From: Candidatus Iainarchaeum sp.
GTDB lineage: Archaea; Iainarchaeota; Iainarchaeia; Iainarchaeales; JAXPJC01
Assembly (NCBI GenBank): GCA_016187745.1
Contig: JACPJC010000008.1
Coordinates: forward strand, 1 to 26,432
Direction of reading: 5' to 3'
Length of the DNA stretch: 26,432 nt
A program made the translations under genes and the position numbers. Shown one piece after another: positions 13,918-23,028 of this stretch (position 1 is the first letter of the stretch; every line of letters starts with the position of its first letter). The notes below the pieces were generated by a model. That model ran no database searches. It was not told the origin of the DNA and saw only the letters and a program-made list of their open reading frames with translations.

Positions 13918-13979
13918 CCTTGGCGCGCAATTCCCTCCTTTTTTTAAATTGTGTTCAGGAAAGGTATTATTGGGAGAGC

Positions 13980-15872
13980 ATGGCAAAGGGTTCAATTGCG
14001 GAGCTGCTTGAAACGCTGCAGGGATATGAGACGGATGAGCACATTGCCGGGGTGCAGAAGGCATTTGAGCTTGCCAGGGGCCTTTATGGAAGTGAATTGA
14101 GGGAATCAAGGAAATTCTGCATAAAGCACCTTGTTGAGGTTGCGGGCATTGTTGCGGGATTAAGGCTTGACTGCAATGCGGTTTCCGCGGCGCTGCTTCA
14201 TGAGGCTGTTGCGGACGGGAAAATTACGGCCGAGGAGATAGAAAAGGCAACAAACAGGGAAACCGCTGCGCTTGTTGACGGGCTGGCAAAGCTAAAGAGA
14301 ATTTCCCTCAAGATAAAGAACATTGCCGAAATGGAAAACATGAGGAAGGTGCTGCTCGCAACAAGCAAGGACATAAGGACTTTGATAATTCTCCTTGCTG
14401 AAAGGGTTGCGGAGCTCGGGGAATTTGGCAGGCTCGGGAAGGAGAAGCAGGAGGAGCTTGCAGAAGAAAACCTTAACATCTATGCGCCAATTGCGCACAA
14501 AATGGGAATGAACAAGATAAAGGACATTCTTGAGGACAATTCATTGAAATACCTTAAGCCGGAAATTTACAGCAAGCTTGCGGGGATGCTTTCAGCCTAC
14601 CGGAAGGAAAAGGAAAAAAGCCTTGAGAAGGCAAGGCAGGCGCTCAGGAAGAAATTTGAGGAGCTCGGGATAAATGCGGAAATACAGGGGAGGACAAAGC
14701 ACATTTACAGCATATACAGGAAAATCTATGAGCGGAACATAAAATTCAATGAGATATATGATTTGGTTGCGCTGCGCGTAATTACAGGGAGCGTAAAGGA
14801 ATGCTATGAGCTGCTTGGGATGATACACTCAATCTGGAATCCGCTTCCGGGAAGGTTTGATGATTACATTGCAAGGCCGAAGCCCAACATGTACCAGAGC
14901 CTGCATACGACAGTAATAGGGCCGGACAACAGGCCCATTGAGATACAGATAAGAACTTTGGAGATGCACAGGATTGCGGAGGATGGAATTGCAGCGCACT
15001 GGCGCTATAAGGGGGAGATGGGCGAAAAGGATTATGACAAGAAGCTGCTCTGGCTAAAGGAGATTTATGACTGGCAGCGCGGAAAGGAGGAAAAGGGGAA
15101 TATTGATTCGCTGAAAATTGATTTTTTCGAGAACAATATTTTTGTTCTGACACCAAAAGGCGAGGTAATAGAGCTGCCTGAGGGCTCGACCCCCATAGAC
15201 TTTGCATATGCAATCCACAGCGATCTGGGGGGCAAATGCGAAAGGGCAAAGGTCGATGGAAAGCTTGTTCCGCTGTCCTATGCGCTTGAGTCCGGGGACA
15301 ATGTTGAAATTATAACTTCCCCAGCGCAGATGCCGAAAAGCGCGTGGCTGAATTTCGTGAAAACAAGCAAGGCAAGGGAGAAAATAAGGGAGGCGCTGCA
15401 GATTCAGGCAGCAAAACCCCAAAAGGCAAGAAAGCGCGGGGCAAGGCAGGTCATAATAAAGGCCTCGGACAAGAGGCTGAGGCTTGCAAAGTGCTGCAGC
15501 CCGCTCCCCGGGGACGAGGTTGTCGGGATACTCACAACAAAGCGCAAAATTTCAGTGCACAGGGCAAATTGCGAGAACATAAGGGTTCTGGGCTCCAGGG
15601 AAAAAATTGTGAATGTTGATTTTTCAGGGGGAAAAGGAAAATTCCCCGCATCGTTTGCGGTTGAGGCAAAGGACAGGCCCAATCTGCTTTCGGACATTCT
15701 CAACCTCATTTCAAGGGACAATGTGACCATAAGCTCGGCAGAGGCAAAATCCCTTGGAAAGGAGCAGACCGCATGCAAATTTGTTGTTATGGTGAGCAGG
15801 CCGGAGCAGCTCGAAAGGATAATAAATAATTTGTCCAGTGCAAAGGGAATAACACGCGCTTACAGGATTTAA
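13980..15872 (+). CDS. rel: Long RelA/SpoT homologue (pseudo-HD, synthetase, TGS, ZFD, ACT/RRM)
   Basis: GRTKHIYSIYRK, YDLVALRVI, DYIARPKPNMYQSLHTTV, EIQIRT..MH..AE.GIAAHWRYK; TGS DFAYAIHSDLG; ZFD AKCC..HRANC; ACT DRPNLLSDI. Start at ATG 13980. Confidence 0.95.
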   Translation: MAKGSIAELLETLQGYETDEHIAGVQKAFELARGLYGSELRESRKFCIKHLVEVAGIVAGLRLDCNAVSAALLHEAVADGKITAEEIEKATNRETAALVDGLAKLKRISLKIKNIAEMENMRKVLLATSKDIRTLIILLAERVAELGEFGRLGKEKQEELAEENLNIYAPIAHKMGMNKIKDILEDNSLKYLKPEIYSKLAGMLSAYRKEKEKSLEKARQALRKKFEELGINAEIQGRTKHIYSIYRKIYERNIKFNEIYDLVALRVITGSVKECYELLGMIHSIWNPLPGRFDDYIARPKPNMYQSLHTTVIGPDNRPIEIQIRTLEMHRIAEDGIAAHWRYKGEMGEKDYDKKLLWLKEIYDWQRGKEEKGNIDSLKIDFFENNIFVLTPKGEVIELPEGSTPIDFAYAIHSDLGGKCERAKVDGKLVPLSYALESGDNVEIITSPAQMPKSAWLNFVKTSKAREKIREALQIQAAKPQKARKRGARQVIIKASDKRLRLAKCCSPLPGDEVVGILTTKRKISVHRANCENIRVLGSREKIVNVDFSGGKGKFPASFAVEAKDRPNLLSDILNLISRDNVTISSAEAKSLGKEQTACKFVVMVSRPEQLERIINNLSSAKGITRAYRI

Positions 15873-19053: not shown

Positions 19054-19178
19054 TTTCGGGGTAAAACCCGAAATATTTTTCTCTTTGGGTAAAACCTAGA
19101 CTTTCTCTTTTCCTAAAAGAGAAAGGATTGGTTTTTCTTTTGAACCCCGGGGCCTTTTCTTTTTCCAAAAAGAAAAGG
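19054..19178. repeat. Cluster of short inverted repeats 3' of tRNA-Phe
   Basis: TTTCGGG/CCCGAAA (19054-19073); second GGGTAAAACC (19087-19096); 11-bp IR 19101-19125; 12-bp IR 19153-19178. Confidence 0.8.
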
Positions 19179-19186
19179 GGCTGTTG

Positions 19187-19338
19187 TGGGGAAGGCGGGA
19201 TTTGAGCCCGCGACACTAACCGGGTTATTGGAATAACCGCACGGTTGCTGCTCAGCTGGAAACTTCAGCTTCACATAGGCCAAATCTTTTTGTTGACTTT
19301 AACCAATCGTGTGCTCTACCAGACTGAGCTACTTCCCC
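19187..19338 (-). tRNA. tRNA-Phe(GAA) with three introns (30/31, 37/38, 43/44)
   Basis: Removing 19270-19307, 19246-19262 and 19217-19239 gives a 74-nt cloverleaf: GGGGAAG TA GCTC AGTCTGGTA GAGC A CACGG CT GAA GA CCGTG GTGTC GCGGG CTCAAAT CCCGC CTTCCCC A. Each junction lies in a BHB or relaxed-BHB motif. Confidence 0.88.
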
Positions 19339-19375
19339 GTCAAATGAATTGCTCCTCCAAATGATTTTTATATTG

Positions 19376-19492
19376 CGAGCCCGGGGGGATTTGAACCCCC
19401 GACAAACGGATTAAGAGTCCGTTGCTTACTGGGAAGATGAAATTTAATTTGAATCAAACTTCAACTTCTCTACCAGGCTGAGCTACGGGCCC
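19376..19492 (-). tRNA. tRNA-Lys(CTT) with 43-nt D-arm intron (22/23)
   Basis: Intron 19427-19469; mature 74-nt cloverleaf with anticodon arm ACGGA-CT CTT AA-TCCGT and G73; CCA not encoded. Confidence 0.95.
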
Positions 19493-19530
19493 AACACATA
19501 TAATTGGAGAGGGAAAGAATTTAAATAAAG

Positions 19531-19644
19531 TGGCGAGCCCGGTGGGATTTGAACCCACGACAAACGGCTTAAAAGGCCGTTGCTTACTGGGAAATTCTGA
19601 TTAATTAAAACCAGAGTTTCTCTACCAGGCTGAGCTACGGGCCC
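19531..19644 (-). tRNA. tRNA-Lys(TTT) with 37-nt D-arm intron (22/23), CCA encoded
   Basis: Intron 19585-19621; anticodon arm ACGGC-CT TTT AA-GCCGT; ends G-CCA. Confidence 0.95.
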
Positions 19645-19701
19645 ACACACATAATATCTGTGAATGATTAACTATTTAAATATACAAAATGCAATCTATC
19701 T

Positions 19702-20401: not shown

Positions 20402-21769
20402 CTAGTTATGTTTCTTTTTTGGCTTTGCCTTTTTCTTCTGCTTGCGCGCTTTTGGTTTTGCTGCTTGTCTTGCCTTTTTGCCCTTGGCCTTTTCAGGCTT
20501 TGGAAGCGCTTTCCTTATTTCCTTTATTCCGCGCATATAGGGAACCAGAACCTTGGGAATTTTTATGCTGCCGTCTGCCTGCTGGTTGTTTTCCAAAAGC
20601 GCAATCATGAGGCGCGGGAGAGCAAGCCCCGAGCCGTTCAGGGTATGCACAAATTTTGCGCCTTCAGGGGTAAAATACTTTGTGTTCATGCGCCTTGCCT
20701 GGAAGTCCTTGCAATCGCTGCAGGAGCTTGTTTCCAGATAGCGCCCCATTGCTGAGGCATAGCACTCAATATCATAGGTTTTTGCAGAGGCAAAACCCAT
20801 ATCGCCTGTGCAGAGCAGAAGCGTTCTATAAGGAACTTCAAGCAGCTCAAGGAGCTTTTCCGCGCGGGCGCGCATTGCTTCAAGTTCTTTTTGGGAATCC
20901 TCCTGCTTGCATATAACTACCATTTCAACCTTATCGAATTGGTGCAATCTGAATATTCCGCGGGTTGCTTCGCCGTGTTTTCCCGCTTCAGTGCGGAAGC
21001 AGGGGGTATAGGCGCAATAGCGCTTTGGAAGCTCTTTTGGATTCAATACTTCAGCGGCATGGAGGTTTGTAAGCGGAACTTCGGCTGTCGGAATTAAATA
21101 AAGGCCTTCGCGGGTTTTGAACAAGTCATTTTCAAATTTCGGGAGCTGGCCTGTTCCGAACATTGTTTTCTCATTGACCAGTTCCGGGGGGAAAATTTCT
21201 GTCCAGCCGTCCCTTGTGTGGAAATCAAGCATGAAATTTATCAGCGCCCTTTCAAGCGTTGCGCCCAACCCCTTGAAAACATAGAATCCGGAGCCGGCCA
21301 ATTTTGCGGAGCGCTCCAAATCAAGGATGTCAAGGCCCTTCCCGAGCTCGGAGTGGTCCTTTGGCTTGAACCTGAATTTCGGGATTTTTCCCTGTTGTTT
21401 TACAACTTTGTTGTCCTCTGAGCCCGCGCCCTTTGGAACTGAAGCATCAGGGAGATTCGGGAGGGTTTTGGTTATTGCGTCAATCTGGCCCTTCAAAGCG
21501 TCTGCCTGAACCTCAAGGGATTTTATCTGCTCGGGAATTATCCTGACTTCCGCAATCTTTTGCGCAGCATCAGCCTTTTTCACAATAAGCTCCTTGATTT
21601 CTGCTGAAAGGACATTGCGCCTGTGCCTGAGCGCGTCAGCCTGCTCTTTGAGGCTCTTCCATTCTGAATCCTTCCCCGCAAGCCCGTCAATATCCGCATT
21701 ATAGCCGCGGCTCTGCAATCCCTTTTTCACAACTTCCGGGTTTTTCCTGATTAGGTCAATGTCAAGCAT
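20402..21769 (-). CDS. serS: Seryl-tRNA synthetase (standard/bacterial type) with Lys-rich C-terminal extension
   Basis: True start MLDIDLIR at 21769; GTGQLPKF, LIPTAEVP, FRTEAG, HQFDKVE, FQARR, HTLNGSGLA..R. Confidence 0.96.
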   Translation of the reverse strand: MLDIDLIRKNPEVVKKGLQSRGYNADIDGLAGKDSEWKSLKEQADALRHRRNVLSAEIKELIVKKADAAQKIAEVRIIPEQIKSLEVQADALKGQIDAITKTLPNLPDASVPKGAGSEDNKVVKQQGKIPKFRFKPKDHSELGKGLDILDLERSAKLAGSGFYVFKGLGATLERALINFMLDFHTRDGWTEIFPPELVNEKTMFGTGQLPKFENDLFKTREGLYLIPTAEVPLTNLHAAEVLNPKELPKRYCAYTPCFRTEAGKHGEATRGIFRLHQFDKVEMVVICKQEDSQKELEAMRARAEKLLELLEVPYRTLLLCTGDMGFASAKTYDIECYASAMGRYLETSSCSDCKDFQARRMNTKYFTPEGAKFVHTLNGSGLALPRLMIALLENNQQADGSIKIPKVLVPYMRGIKEIRKALPKPEKAKGKKARQAAKPKARKQKKKAKPKKKHN

Positions 21770-21811
21770 TTGTCTCTGATATAAAAAGATATTCATATAA
21801 CTTAAATAATT

Positions 21812-22345
21812 ATGGTTAGGGCAAGTGTTTTGAGATATGGGCACAGGAGCGTCAGGGATTATCGCGTTACAAGCCACTGCGCGCTTGTGGCAAGGGCTTT
21901 CGGCGCAGAGGGCATAACCATATGCGGGGAGGAGGACGAAAGCATCAGGCGGAGCATTGAGAAAGTTTCTGAGAAATGGGGCGGAACTTTCAGCGTCGGT
22001 TTTTCCGATTCGTGGAAAAATGAATTTAAGAAGTTCAGGAAGAGGCGGAATTCCGCAATAGTGCATCTCACAATGTATGGGATTCCATTGCAGAAGGCGA
22101 TTGGGAAAATAAGGAAATTCGGGAATATTATGGCTGTAATTGGCTCGCAGAAGGTTGAGGGCGCGGTGTATGGGGATTCTGATTTCAATGTAAGCGTCAC
22201 GCAGCAGCCGCATTCTGAAATTGCCGCGCTTGCTGTTTTTCTGCACGAATTGTTCGGGGGAAAGGAGCTTGAAAGGAAATTTCCAAATGCAAAAATAAGG
22301 ATTATCCCTAAAGAAAAAGGGAAAAAAGTTCTGAAAGGGGAATAA
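21812..22345 (+). CDS. trm56: tRNA (cytidine56-2'-O)-methyltransferase aTrm56
   Basis: LRYGHR..RD.RVTSH.ALVARAFGA, VHLTMYG, IGSQKV, QPHSEIAALAVFL. Confidence 0.96.
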   Translation: MVRASVLRYGHRSVRDYRVTSHCALVARAFGAEGITICGEEDESIRRSIEKVSEKWGGTFSVGFSDSWKNEFKKFRKRRNSAIVHLTMYGIPLQKAIGKIRKFGNIMAVIGSQKVEGAVYGDSDFNVSVTQQPHSEIAALAVFLHELFGGKELERKFPNAKIRIIPKEKGKKVLKGE

Positions 22346-22384
22346 ATTGCTTTTTAATCCTTTTTCTATCAAGTTATATAAAGC

Positions 22385-22924
22385 ATGGCTAAGAAAGACC
22401 TGGTTGAGTTGTCTGTTGTCAAGGAATTCCTGAACAGCAAGGCGGGAGAACATGCCTGCGAGCTGGTAAGGATATGCAACAGCAAGAAAATTGTGAATGA
22501 TGAGTTCATAGCAGGCAAGCTGGGGCTGAAAATTACTGAAGTTAGGGCCATACTCAACAGGCTGCATTACCATGGGGTTGCGTATTATGACAAGAAGCAT
22601 GATTCGCGCTCGGGGTGGTATAGCTACACCTGGAAGATAAACAGCAAAAGGATAGCTGAATTGATTCTTGGGCAGCAGGCCGAGGAAGTGCAGAAGCTTG
22701 AGAGCAAGAGGGATTTCGAGAAAAACTACAGCTTTTTCAGCTGCAGGAAGAACTGCGACAATTTCCAGTTTGAGATTGCTGCGGAATACGGATTCCGCTG
22801 CCCGCAGTGCGGGGACATGATGAATTCCGTTGACAGCAAAAAGCGCATGAATCTTGTAAACAACAAGATAAAAAATATCAGGGAAGAGATTGATGTGCTT
22901 GAGAAGTTCTGCAAGGCCGTATAA
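22385..22924 (+). CDS. tfe: Transcription factor E alpha subunit
   Basis: Winged helix (DEFIA..LGL...EVR.IL..L...G...Y, SGWYSYTW) plus Zn ribbon (CRKNC...FRCPQCG) and coiled tail. Confidence 0.93.
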   Translation: MAKKDLVELSVVKEFLNSKAGEHACELVRICNSKKIVNDEFIAGKLGLKITEVRAILNRLHYHGVAYYDKKHDSRSGWYSYTWKINSKRIAELILGQQAEEVQKLESKRDFEKNYSFFSCRKNCDNFQFEIAAEYGFRCPQCGDMMNSVDSKKRMNLVNNKIKNIREEIDVLEKFCKAV

Positions 22925-23028
22925 AAACACATAAATCTGGACGAAATCAGCAGGCATTAAAAGGGATTAAATTTAACAGCAAATGTTAAAAGAAGGTTGA
23001 TTTTGGTTTTGTTTGCATTTTTGTCTTG

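What the first reader, a model, noticed from the sequence alone, without database searches (positions are those of the whole stretch)
19187..19338. Three-intron tRNA-Phe with 7- and 6-nt micro-exons and interlocking splice motifs that dictate order
Seen: introns of 38 nt (30/31), 17 nt (37/38) and 23 nt (43/44) make up 78 of 152 nt; the internal exons are GCTGAAG (holding the anticodon) and ACCGTG. The intron 1 BHB (AG-CACA-CG^A ... TGTG-AA^G-CT) uses C32/T33. The intron 3 BHB (GCA-ACCG-TG^C ... CGGT-TA^G-TGT) uses positions 38-41 and borrows its outer helix GCA from the end of intron 2. The relaxed intron 2 motif needs 32-35 and the anticodon stem, which are free only after introns 1 and 3 are removed. 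Inference: obligatory order (1 and 3, then 2), with one intron serving as a splicing element for another. Established: triple-intron tRNAs are rare, known mainly from Thermoproteales, and standard scans often miss them.
Basis: partly seen in the sequence, partly recalled or inferred. Interest (0 to 1): 0.85.

Follow-up and report, generated by a model that had tools for sequence, protein, structure and literature searches.

The report
Three-intron phenylalanine tRNA gene
This is a real gene for the phenylalanine transfer RNA of a tiny groundwater archaeon, cut into four pieces by three short introns whose splice signals overlap, a rare but already known kind of gene layout.

Summary
A tRNA-Phe(GAA) gene lies on the minus strand at 19338-19187. 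It has introns of 38 nt (30/31), 17 nt (37/38) and 23 nt (43/44), and internal exons of 7 and 6 nt. Joining the exons in silico gives a perfect 74-nt cloverleaf. The same junction region is contiguous in intronless tRNA-Phe genes of relatives.

- **Intron 1:** its motif has strong covariation support in 12 genomes.
- **Intron 3:** a strict motif whose outer helix does use the last three bases of intron 2.
- **Intron 2:** a relaxed motif (3 Watson-Crick pairs plus A·G) that several relatives share.
- **Independent data:** the whole 152-nt gene recurs in DNA contigs of three other studies. The only differences lie in intron 3 and keep its structure.
- **Second copy:** no second tRNA-Phe was found in the 0.96-Mb genome, which is 91% complete.

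The motifs of introns 1 and 3 exclude that of intron 2. Folding models favour the order 3 and 1, then 2. "Obligatory" is not shown, because no RNA data exist.

Up to three introns per tRNA, and motifs that form only after other introns are removed, are already described for Crenarchaeota. In a red alga the 37/38 intron was shown to be removed last. This is therefore a new member of a known kind. It sits in a lineage with a plain, single-copy EndA.

The parts
19308..19338 (-). Exon 1: tRNA positions 1-30 (acceptor 5' strand, D arm, first four bases of the anticodon stem)
   Evidence: Rfam alignment; segment table and ARAGORN cloverleaf
19270..19307 (-). Intron 1, 38 nt, between positions 30 and 31; strict bulge-helix-bulge motif whose central helix uses C25-A28 and whose outer helix uses A23,G24 with C32,U33
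   Evidence: Covariation over 12 genomes: 95.1% of 144 cells paired, 8 of 12 pairs changed on both sides, 0 of 500 shuffles as high
19263..19269 (-). Exon 2, 7 nt GCTGAAG: positions 31-37 with anticodon GAA
   Evidence: the same 7 nt in all tRNA-Phe genes of relatives
19246..19262 (-). Intron 2, 17 nt, canonical position 37/38; relaxed motif (3 Watson-Crick pairs plus A35xG). Its last three bases GCA form the outer helix of the intron-3 motif. Its middle is complementary to the 5' half of the D arm
   Evidence: Duplex with exon 1 is -17.7 kcal/mol, reached by 5 of 2000 shuffles. 16 of 17 bases identical in metagenome locus L135
19240..19245 (-). Exon 3, 6 nt ACCGTG: positions 38-43
   Evidence: contiguous with the neighbouring exons in intronless relatives
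19217..19239 (-). Intron 3, 23 nt, between positions 43 and 44; strict motif (outer 3 pairs, central 4, inner 7 counted (6 plus a 4-nt loop in the MFE fold))
   Evidence: The two population variants at 19224 and 19232 fall here; by my mapping the first turns a G-C pair into G-U and the second lies in the loop
19187..19216 (-). Exon 4: positions 44-73 (variable loop, T arm, acceptor 3' strand, discriminator A73); no CCA encoded
19365..19374 (-). A/T-rich box AATATAAAAA, 27-36 nt upstream of the first tRNA base; possible archaeal TATA box (inferred from position only)
   Evidence: Read; not tested
19080..19186 (-). 3' trailer made of two hairpin modules of about 50 nt that recur elsewhere in the genome
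   Evidence: depth 10-15 times that of the flanks in metagenome contigs

Best explanation
This is the working, and probably the only, tRNA-Phe(GAA) gene of a roughly 1-Mb archaeon from groundwater. Its EndA looks most like those of Nanobdellota (DPANN); that placement is a lead only.

The 152-nt transcript carries three protein-spliced (bulge-helix-bulge) introns at 30/31, 37/38 and 43/44. The genome's single tRNA-splicing endonuclease EndA would cut them and the ligase RtcB would join the exons. Both genes are present.

Introns 1 and 2 are old: homologous introns sit at the same positions in other families of the order. Intron 3 is a later gain, seen here and in one metagenome relative.

In the primary transcript the motifs of introns 1 and 3 can form together. 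The intron-2 motif cannot, because its partners (bases 32-33, bases 38-41 and its own 3' end) are used by the other two motifs. The favoured path is therefore introns 3 and 1 in either order, then intron 2.

Shown: gene structure, motifs, conservation, mutual exclusion. Inferred: expression, the enzymes that act, and the order.
For: - **Model match and cloverleaf:** Rfam tRNA at 42.8 bits. The in-silico spliced product is a perfect tRNA-Phe(GAA) cloverleaf.
- **Homology:** the product is 55-68 of 74 identical to 18 contiguous, intronless tRNA-Phe genes of relatives. Most of these carry the region across all three junctions unbroken.
- **Census:** of the 31 relatives in which tRNA-Phe was recovered, 18 have no intron, 1 has one, 11 have two and 1 has three. 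The 30/31 intron is in 11 of them and the 37/38 intron in 10.
- **Intron-1 motif covariation:** 95.1% of cells paired against 20.8-41.7% when the partners are slid; 8 of 12 pairs changed on both sides; 0 of 500 shuffles as high.
- **Intron-2 mismatch is shared:** the same relaxed A35xG occurs in G013, G001, G076, G036, G005 and L135. G036 has this intron alone.
- **Independent DNA:** 155-nt contigs spanning 19186-19338 in three runs of three other studies show 0-2 differences, both in intron 3. By my mapping both are compatible with the structure.
- **Second example of 43/44:** L135 carries the 17-nt intron 2 (16 of 17 identical) and a 33-nt intron at 43/44.
- **No second tRNA-Phe:** the spliced-alignment scan of all 10 contigs scores 130.7 here and 83.9 at the next independent locus. 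The two ARAGORN 'Phe' calls on C5 are a class II, Leu-like tRNA and a non-tRNA.
- **Enzymes:** EndA (87 bits) and RtcB (567 bits) are present.
- **Order:** constrained ensembles.
Against: - No RNA data exist. None of the 20 listed runs is on record as RNA, so neither expression nor intermediates were seen.
- The genome is 91% complete, so an intact copy could lie in the missing part.
- All three motifs are minority conformers in the thermodynamic model. The intron-1 core costs +3.9 kcal/mol and the MFE uses a shifted, non-motif register of the CACACG repeat. The intron-2 core costs +6.8 kcal/mol even in the last intermediate.
- In that last intermediate a register shifted by one base is a strict motif and is 1.5 kcal/mol more stable than the functional one. 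It would delete G37 and A38. The model does not explain how the right register is chosen.
- EndA aligns without a gap to the M. jannaschii enzyme, a type reported to cut only strict motifs (passage in PMC5829648). Intron 2 is not strict.
Confidence: 0.8

Rival explanations
1. The gene is real and spliced, but there is no fixed order. The endonuclease captures short-lived conformers, any intron can go first, and the shared bases are a by-product of packing three introns into 14 positions of the anticodon arm.
For: - The intron-3 core still forms at probability 0.08 with intron 2 gone.
- The borrowed outer helix is only 3 pairs including a G-U.
- Among the 10 relatives that have a 37/38 intron but no 43/44 intron, my reading of the intron ends finds that G005 could form 3 such pairs and G045 2.
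- All motifs are minor conformers in the model, so enzyme binding must drive folding anyway.
Against: - The intron-2 core is 1e-11 in the primary transcript against 1.6e-5 after the other two are removed.
- Bases 32-33 cannot serve two helices at once.
- In the red alga C. merolae, a three-intron tRNA loses its 37/38 intron last (passage in PMC3728597).
Confidence: 0.3
2. It is a decaying or silent copy, and the working tRNA-Phe lies in the unassembled 9% of the genome.
For: - Genome completeness is 91%.
- The T loop reads CUCAAAU where most relatives read UUCAAAU.
- The shifted decoy register of intron 2.
Against: - All stems of the product are perfect.
- The exons are unchanged in contigs of three other studies, and the only two variants lie in intron 3.
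- Motifs for all three introns are present (strict for introns 1 and 3, relaxed for intron 2).
- No other candidate was found in 964 kb.
Confidence: 0.05
3. The exon and intron boundaries are different (two introns, or shifted cuts), or the locus is an assembly artefact.
For: Many chance motif candidates exist in the 152 nt.
Against: - At each junction the flanking bases differ, so no other cut gives the same product (read).
- The product matches contiguous genes of relatives across all junctions.
- The same 152 nt is assembled in 4 of the 4 runs laid.
Confidence: 0.02

Closest known systems
Multiple-intron tRNA genes of Crenarchaeota (Thermoproteales), including 'nested' introns (Sugahara et al. 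2007, 2008; Tocchini-Valentini et al. 2009). The papers themselves are not held; I saw them cited in passages of PMC4033280, PMC3728597 and PMC8450103.
   Same: Up to three bulge-helix-bulge introns per tRNA, at canonical and non-canonical positions, with very short exons. Introns lie so close that one motif forms only after another intron is removed.
   Different: The host here is a roughly 1-Mb groundwater archaeon with a single 169-aa EndA of the short homotetramer length, not the two-subunit crenarchaeal enzyme. Intron sequences have no similar copies in other tRNA genes of this genome. Intron transposition was reported for Thermoproteales.
tRNA-Ile(UAU) of the red alga Cyanidioschyzon merolae (Soma et al. 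2013, PMC3728597; PMC9602550), passages read
   Same: Three introns. RT-PCR found that the two outer introns go first, in either order, and the 37/38 intron last. That is the order inferred here.
   Different: In the alga the motifs fold independently and sit in different arms (D, anticodon, T). Here all three lie within positions 30-44 and share bases. The alga is a eukaryote.
Disrupted tRNA genes of DPANN archaea with short (alpha4-type) EndA (Kaneta et al. 2018, PMC5829648), section 16 read
   Same: Small-genome archaea with an alpha4-type EndA and many interrupted tRNA genes. Incomplete tRNA sets are said there to need manual curation.
   Different: That paper links the disruption to an inserted loop (L3). 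The EndA here aligns to the M. jannaschii enzyme over residues 3-169 without any gap. I did not see the paper's figures or supplements, so I cannot say whether this order or this tRNA was covered.

Membership tests
tRNA (Rfam RF00005), isotype Phe | Score above the family's gathering threshold | tested here: met
   42.8 bits against a threshold of 29, model positions 1-71 of 71
tRNA (Rfam RF00005), isotype Phe | Cloverleaf with a 7-nt anticodon loop, anticodon GAA and discriminator A73 after intron removal | tested here: met
   ARAGORN on the in-silico spliced 74-mer calls tRNA-Phe(gaa) with all stems fully paired. It is 55-68 of 74 identical to tRNA-Phe of 18 relatives.
Archaeal bulge-helix-bulge intron, strict form (hBHBh') | Two 3-nt bulges on opposite strands separated by a 4-bp helix, flanked by helices of at least 2 bp, with cuts after the second bulge base | tested here: met
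   Met for intron 1 (outer 2, central 4; inner 1 pair, then a U-U mismatch, then 7 more) and for intron 3 (outer 3, central 4, inner 7). Covariation supports intron 1.
Archaeal bulge-helix-bulge intron, strict form (hBHBh') | The same features, applied to intron 2 | tested here: not met
   The central helix has 3 Watson-Crick pairs plus A35xG, and the inner helix has 2 pairs. It fits only the relaxed forms. G013, G001, G076, G036, G005 and L135 share the same mismatch.
Nested or ordered multiple-intron pre-tRNA | At least one motif can form only after another intron is removed | tested here: inconclusive
   Base sharing is shown directly from the sequence. Modelled probability of the intron-2 core is 1e-11 in the primary transcript and 1.6e-5 after introns 1 and 3 are out. 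There are no RNA intermediates and no enzyme assay.
Protein-dependent tRNA splicing pathway | EndA endonuclease and RtcB ligase encoded | tested here: met
   PF01974 at 87.1 bits: one 169-aa gene on C8, with no paralogue found. PF01139 at 567 bits on C5.
Expressed, functional tRNA | Mature spliced RNA present in cells | not testable with these tools
   All 20 listed runs are DNA.

The most novel reading that the evidence does not exclude
Intron 2 is more than a passenger: it acts in cis as a scaffold for the splicing of its two neighbours and is kept by selection for that role.
- Its middle pairs with the 5' half of the D arm (10 pairs, -17.7 kcal/mol). That would free the D-stem 3' strand, which the intron-1 motif needs.
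- Its last three bases make the outer helix that turns the intron-3 motif into a strict one.
- In a lineage whose plain, loop-less EndA may accept only strict motifs, these contacts between introns would fix the order 1 and 3, then 2.

Hints:
- Intron 2 is 16 of 17 identical in L135, while intron 3 there differs in length (33 against 23 nt) and interior.
- The C at the second-last position of intron 2 occurs only in the two sequences that also have intron 3.
- In the model, removing intron 2 first lowers the core probability of the intron-1 motif about 10-fold and of the intron-3 motif about 60-fold.
Probability: 0.2. Interest if true: 0.65.

Novelty: new member of a known kind. Interest (0 to 1): 0.42.

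Why it matters
The finding adds a clear, comparatively supported three-intron tRNA to a lineage outside the Crenarchaeota. The 30/31 and 37/38 introns of tRNA-Phe are shared by several families of that order.

It shows that default annotation of such genomes will lose or misname an essential tRNA. ARAGORN finds nothing by default and calls tRNA-Ala when introns are allowed.

It also gives a compact test case for how a short, apparently plain EndA handles three things:
- a relaxed motif;
- overlapping motifs;
- a competing strict register that would give a defective tRNA.

All of this is testable with one enzyme and one 152-nt transcript. The concepts themselves (three introns, nested motifs, ordered removal) are already in print.

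Tried and rejected
**Searches that found nothing or could not be run**
- ARAGORN by default found no tRNA in the window. With introns allowed it gave many wrong calls, including tRNA-Ala for this gene and two false 'Phe' calls on contig C5. I rejected those two after looking at them.
- A bare motif scan is uninformative: 1341 candidates.
- The search for related loci on genome contigs with LysRS found nothing. A degenerate 3'-exon pattern on genome contigs also found nothing. I therefore could not obtain organism names. The only taxonomic lead is that the nearest Atlas cluster of EndA is commonest in Nanobdellota. The LysRS Atlas hits were mixed bacteria and archaea and told nothing.
- No RNA holder was listed among the 20 runs.
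- blastn-short of the three introns against the genome found only the introns themselves, so there is no sign of intron transposition within this genome.
- BLAST of the 152 nt against 100 genomes of the order found no homologue of intron 3.
One, L135, is real.
- A literature search for the intron positions as numbers returned only irrelevant papers.
- Sugahara 2007 and Tocchini-Valentini 2009 are not held. I know them only through citing passages and recall.
- Supplements of papers were not opened. Those of PMC5829648 and PMC8450103 may list tRNA introns of DPANN genomes that bear on novelty.
- Locus L037 (G003) was dropped from the census. It has a Lys-like acceptor stem, its 'Phe' call rested on forced alignment, and G003 has an intronless tRNA-Phe at L015.
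- Intron positions in G094, and the first two in G048 and G031, rest on alignment plus my reading of the motifs, not on a separate test.

Full report
**What is there.** Rfam's tRNA model matches the minus strand at 19338-19187 with 42.8 bits (gathering score 29). It leaves 66 and about 24 unaligned bases inside the anticodon and variable regions.
- exon 1, 31 nt
- intron 1, 38 nt
- exon 2, GCTGAAG
- intron 2, 17 nt
- exon 3, ACCGTG
- intron 3, 23 nt
- exon 4, 30 nt

Joining the exons inside a script gives a 74-nt RNA. ARAGORN draws it as tRNA-Phe(GAA) with every stem fully paired and A73 as discriminator. RNAfold returns the cloverleaf at -31.5 kcal/mol. The flanking bases differ at each junction, so no other cut gives the same product.

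**Homology fixes the junctions.** BLAST of the locus against 40, then 100, genomes of the same order was followed by a spliced alignment and ARAGORN. This recovered tRNA-Phe(GAA) in 31 relatives:
- 18 have no intron;
- 1 (G036) has only a 37/38 intron;
- 11 have two introns, of which 9 have 30/31 plus 37/38;
- 1 (G031) has three introns, at other positions plus 30/31.

The in-silico product of the window is 55-68 of 74 identical to the 18 contiguous genes. Most of them carry the stretch that spans all three junctions unbroken. This is the strongest evidence that the parse is right. The loci were picked by similarity to this gene, so the census is a sample, not a survey.

**The three motifs.**

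*Intron 1.* The outer helix is A23-U33 and G24-C32. The central helix is C25-A28 with UGUG of the intron. The bulges are CG^A and AA^G. The inner helix has one U-U mismatch. Across 12 genomes 95.1% of 144 cells pair, and 8 of 12 pairs change on both sides. None of 500 shuffles reaches the observed percentage paired or covariation score, and slid controls pair at 20.8-41.7%. The intron is therefore old and its motif is under selection.

*Intron 3.* This is a strict motif, with 3 outer, 4 central and 7 inner pairs.

*Intron 2.* It sits at the canonical position with C32-G, U33-A and G34-C plus an A35xG mismatch, and only two inner pairs. The same mismatch occurs in G013, G001, G076, G036 and G005 and in L135. 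It is a lineage trait, and in G036 it works without any other intron.

**Independent DNA.** No RNA run holds the locus. I laid the contigs of four DNA runs from four studies. One contig of the best holder covers 19135-19648 without a difference. That run may be the source sample. In each of the three other studies a 155-nt contig covers 19186-19338 with 0, 2 and 2 differences. Both differences (19224, 19232) lie in intron 3. By my mapping to the minus strand, one turns an inner G-C pair into G-U and the other lies in the hairpin loop. The exons are unchanged. This argues against an assembly artefact and against decay.

**A second example of the 43/44 intron.** A gapped pattern was scanned over metagenome contigs. 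Of the 80 loci returned, one was real. L135 has exon 1 joined directly to exon 2, so it has no 30/31 intron. It has a 17-nt intron 2 that differs from the window's at one base, and a 33-nt intron at 43/44 that keeps the same ends but has another interior. Its contig is cut inside exon 1.

**Is it the only tRNA-Phe?**
- BLAST finds one copy in the genome.
- A spliced-alignment scan of all 10 contigs scores 130.7 here. The next independent locus scores 83.9, which falls within the scores non-Phe tRNAs gave under slightly different parameters.
- ARAGORN's two 'Phe' calls on C5 fail. One has a long variable arm and a G at position 33 (23.3 bits in Rfam), so it is a Leu-like class II tRNA. The other has no Rfam match at E up to 1.
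- The genome is 91% complete, so a second copy is unlikely but not excluded.

**Order of removal.** The intron-1 and intron-3 motifs use separate bases and can coexist. The intron-2 motif needs three things: bases 32-35, of which 32-33 are in the outer helix of the intron-1 motif; an anticodon stem that intron 1 interrupts; and bases 38-43 together with its own 3' end, which the intron-3 motif uses.

The core probabilities from constrained partition functions at 37 C are:

| State | Intron 3 | Intron 1 | Intron 2 |
|---|---|---|---|
| Primary transcript | 0.13 | 1.8e-3 | 1e-11 |
| One neighbour removed | – | – | 1e-8 to 3e-8 |
| Both neighbours removed | – | – | 1.6e-5 |
| Intron 2 removed first | 2e-3 (complete strict form 3e-5) | 1.6e-4 | – |

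Values at 15 C rank the same way. The model thus favours 3 and 1, then 2. It also suggests that intron 2 helps the others.

The model does not show necessity. The intron-3 core still forms at 0.08 when it is the last intron. In addition, every motif is a minority conformer, so enzyme binding must select the conformers.

**Two further points from the folding.**

First, the MFE of the primary transcript pairs intron 2 with the 5' half of the D arm: 10 pairs with one bulge, -17.7 kcal/mol. Only 5 of 2000 shuffles of the intron reach this against exon 1, and 17 of 2000 against everything upstream. This would release the D-stem 3' strand that the intron-1 motif uses. A shorter version (CCAGG with CCUGG) is visible in G013 and G076 but not in G001 or G036. 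That is my reading, and it is a lead only.

Second, once only intron 2 is left, a register shifted by one base is possible, with cuts at 36/37 and 38/39. It is a strict motif and is 1.5 kcal/mol more stable than the functional register. It would delete G37 and A38. Its extra pair needs the C at the second-last position of intron 2. That C is found only in the window and in L135, the two sequences that also have intron 3, where it pairs with G46. How the right register is chosen is unexplained.

**Machinery and host.**
- The genome has one EndA gene (169 aa, next to TrpRS) and no paralogue.
- This EndA aligns to M. jannaschii EndA (1a79) over residues 3-169 without a gap.
- 26 of the 30 relatives searched gave a match to this EndA, as a single place in 25 and as two fragments in G027.
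- The Tyr and His of the catalytic triad are kept. The SVRK motif reads NL(K/H/R)T in this order, and the window's genome has His there. The residue roles are recalled, not tested.
- RtcB is present.
- The genome is 0.96 Mb with 45% G+C, and it is the only member of its family in the collection. The order holds more than 30 families of genomes of 0.5-1.5 Mb.
- The holders are groundwater and soil metagenomes.
- 17 of the 34 Rfam tRNA matches in the genome span more than 100 nt, so interrupted tRNA genes are the rule here.

**What is known.**
- Passages I read say that archaeal tRNA genes hold up to three introns, mostly in Thermoproteales, and that multiple-intron tRNAs also occur in N. equitans, Korarchaeum and ARMAN (PMC4033280, PMC8450103).
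- They also say that some introns lie so close that one must be removed before the next motif forms (PMC8450103), and that in some archaea the last intron can form its motif only after the others are processed (PMC3728597, citing Sugahara 2008 and Tocchini-Valentini 2009).
- In C. merolae tRNA-Ile with three introns, RT-PCR showed that the 37/38 intron goes last (PMC3728597, PMC9602550).
- Kaneta et al. report alpha4-type EndAs with an inserted loop in DPANN lineages, together with more tRNA disruption, and they call for manual curation (PMC5829648, section 16).
- My searches for tRNA introns in DPANN or Woesearchaeota found no description of this tRNA-Phe intron set. Supplements were not seen.

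**Verdict.** The interlocking is real at the level of base sharing. The proposed order is the most likely one but is unproven, and it is not a new principle. I rate this a new member of a known kind. Its specific interest lies in the plain EndA, the conserved 30/31 intron, the possible scaffold role of intron 2 and the unexplained decoy register.

Noticed in passing
window 19376-19492 (-) and 19531-19644 (-): Two tRNA-Lys genes (CUU at 53.1 bits; UUU below threshold at 28.6 bits) lie just upstream on the same strand. Each has an intron of about 40 nt in the D arm and its own A/T-rich box upstream. The UUU gene encodes CCA; the other two genes do not.
   Followed up: partly
window 19080-19186 (-); also G000 C8:4005-4058, C2:80677-80727, C1:38391-38436, C1:13955-13990, C4:10468-10520 and others: Two hairpin modules of about 50 nt (pyrimidine-rich arm, purine-rich arm, then an A-rich tail) follow tRNA-Phe. 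At least 21 further copies lie in the genome: directly after 3' ends of tRNA genes, in spacers some of which appear to follow protein genes, and inside the 37/38 introns of other tRNAs (Gly, Ser, Ala, Arg, a Val-like gene). Depth over them in metagenome contigs is 10-15 times that of the flanks. They may be terminator-like or mobile; their presence inside introns is unexplained.
   Followed up: partly
L001 1474-1983 (-) = G000 C8:51398-51904: The single EndA has no insertion relative to M. jannaschii EndA. It reads NLHT where that enzyme has SVRK, the motif holding the catalytic Lys (recalled). Relatives read NLKT, NIKT, NLHT or NIRA. The genome is nevertheless full of interrupted tRNA genes.
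   Followed up: partly
G000 C5:59131-59273 (L052): A class II, Leu-like tRNA with a long variable arm and at least one long insertion scores only 23.3 bits in Rfam, and ARAGORN misreads it as tRNA-Phe. It is an example of the heavily interrupted tRNAs that scanners miss in this genome.
   Followed up: partly
L005 (G031) and L042 (G094): G031 also has a three-intron tRNA-Phe, with introns after position 9, in the D loop and at 30/31. G094 has two introns in the acceptor and D region. Intron content of this one tRNA ranges from 0 to 3 within the order.
   Followed up: partly
window 13920-15872 (+): A full-length RelA/SpoT homologue (HD, RelA_SpoT, TGS and ACT domains) sits in what is otherwise an archaeal genome with class I LysRS, EndA and RtcB.
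   Followed up: no
window 20402-22957 (-): The seryl-tRNA synthetase ORF is 851 aa. It has about 400 residues with no Pfam match ahead of the usual N-terminal domain.
   Followed up: no
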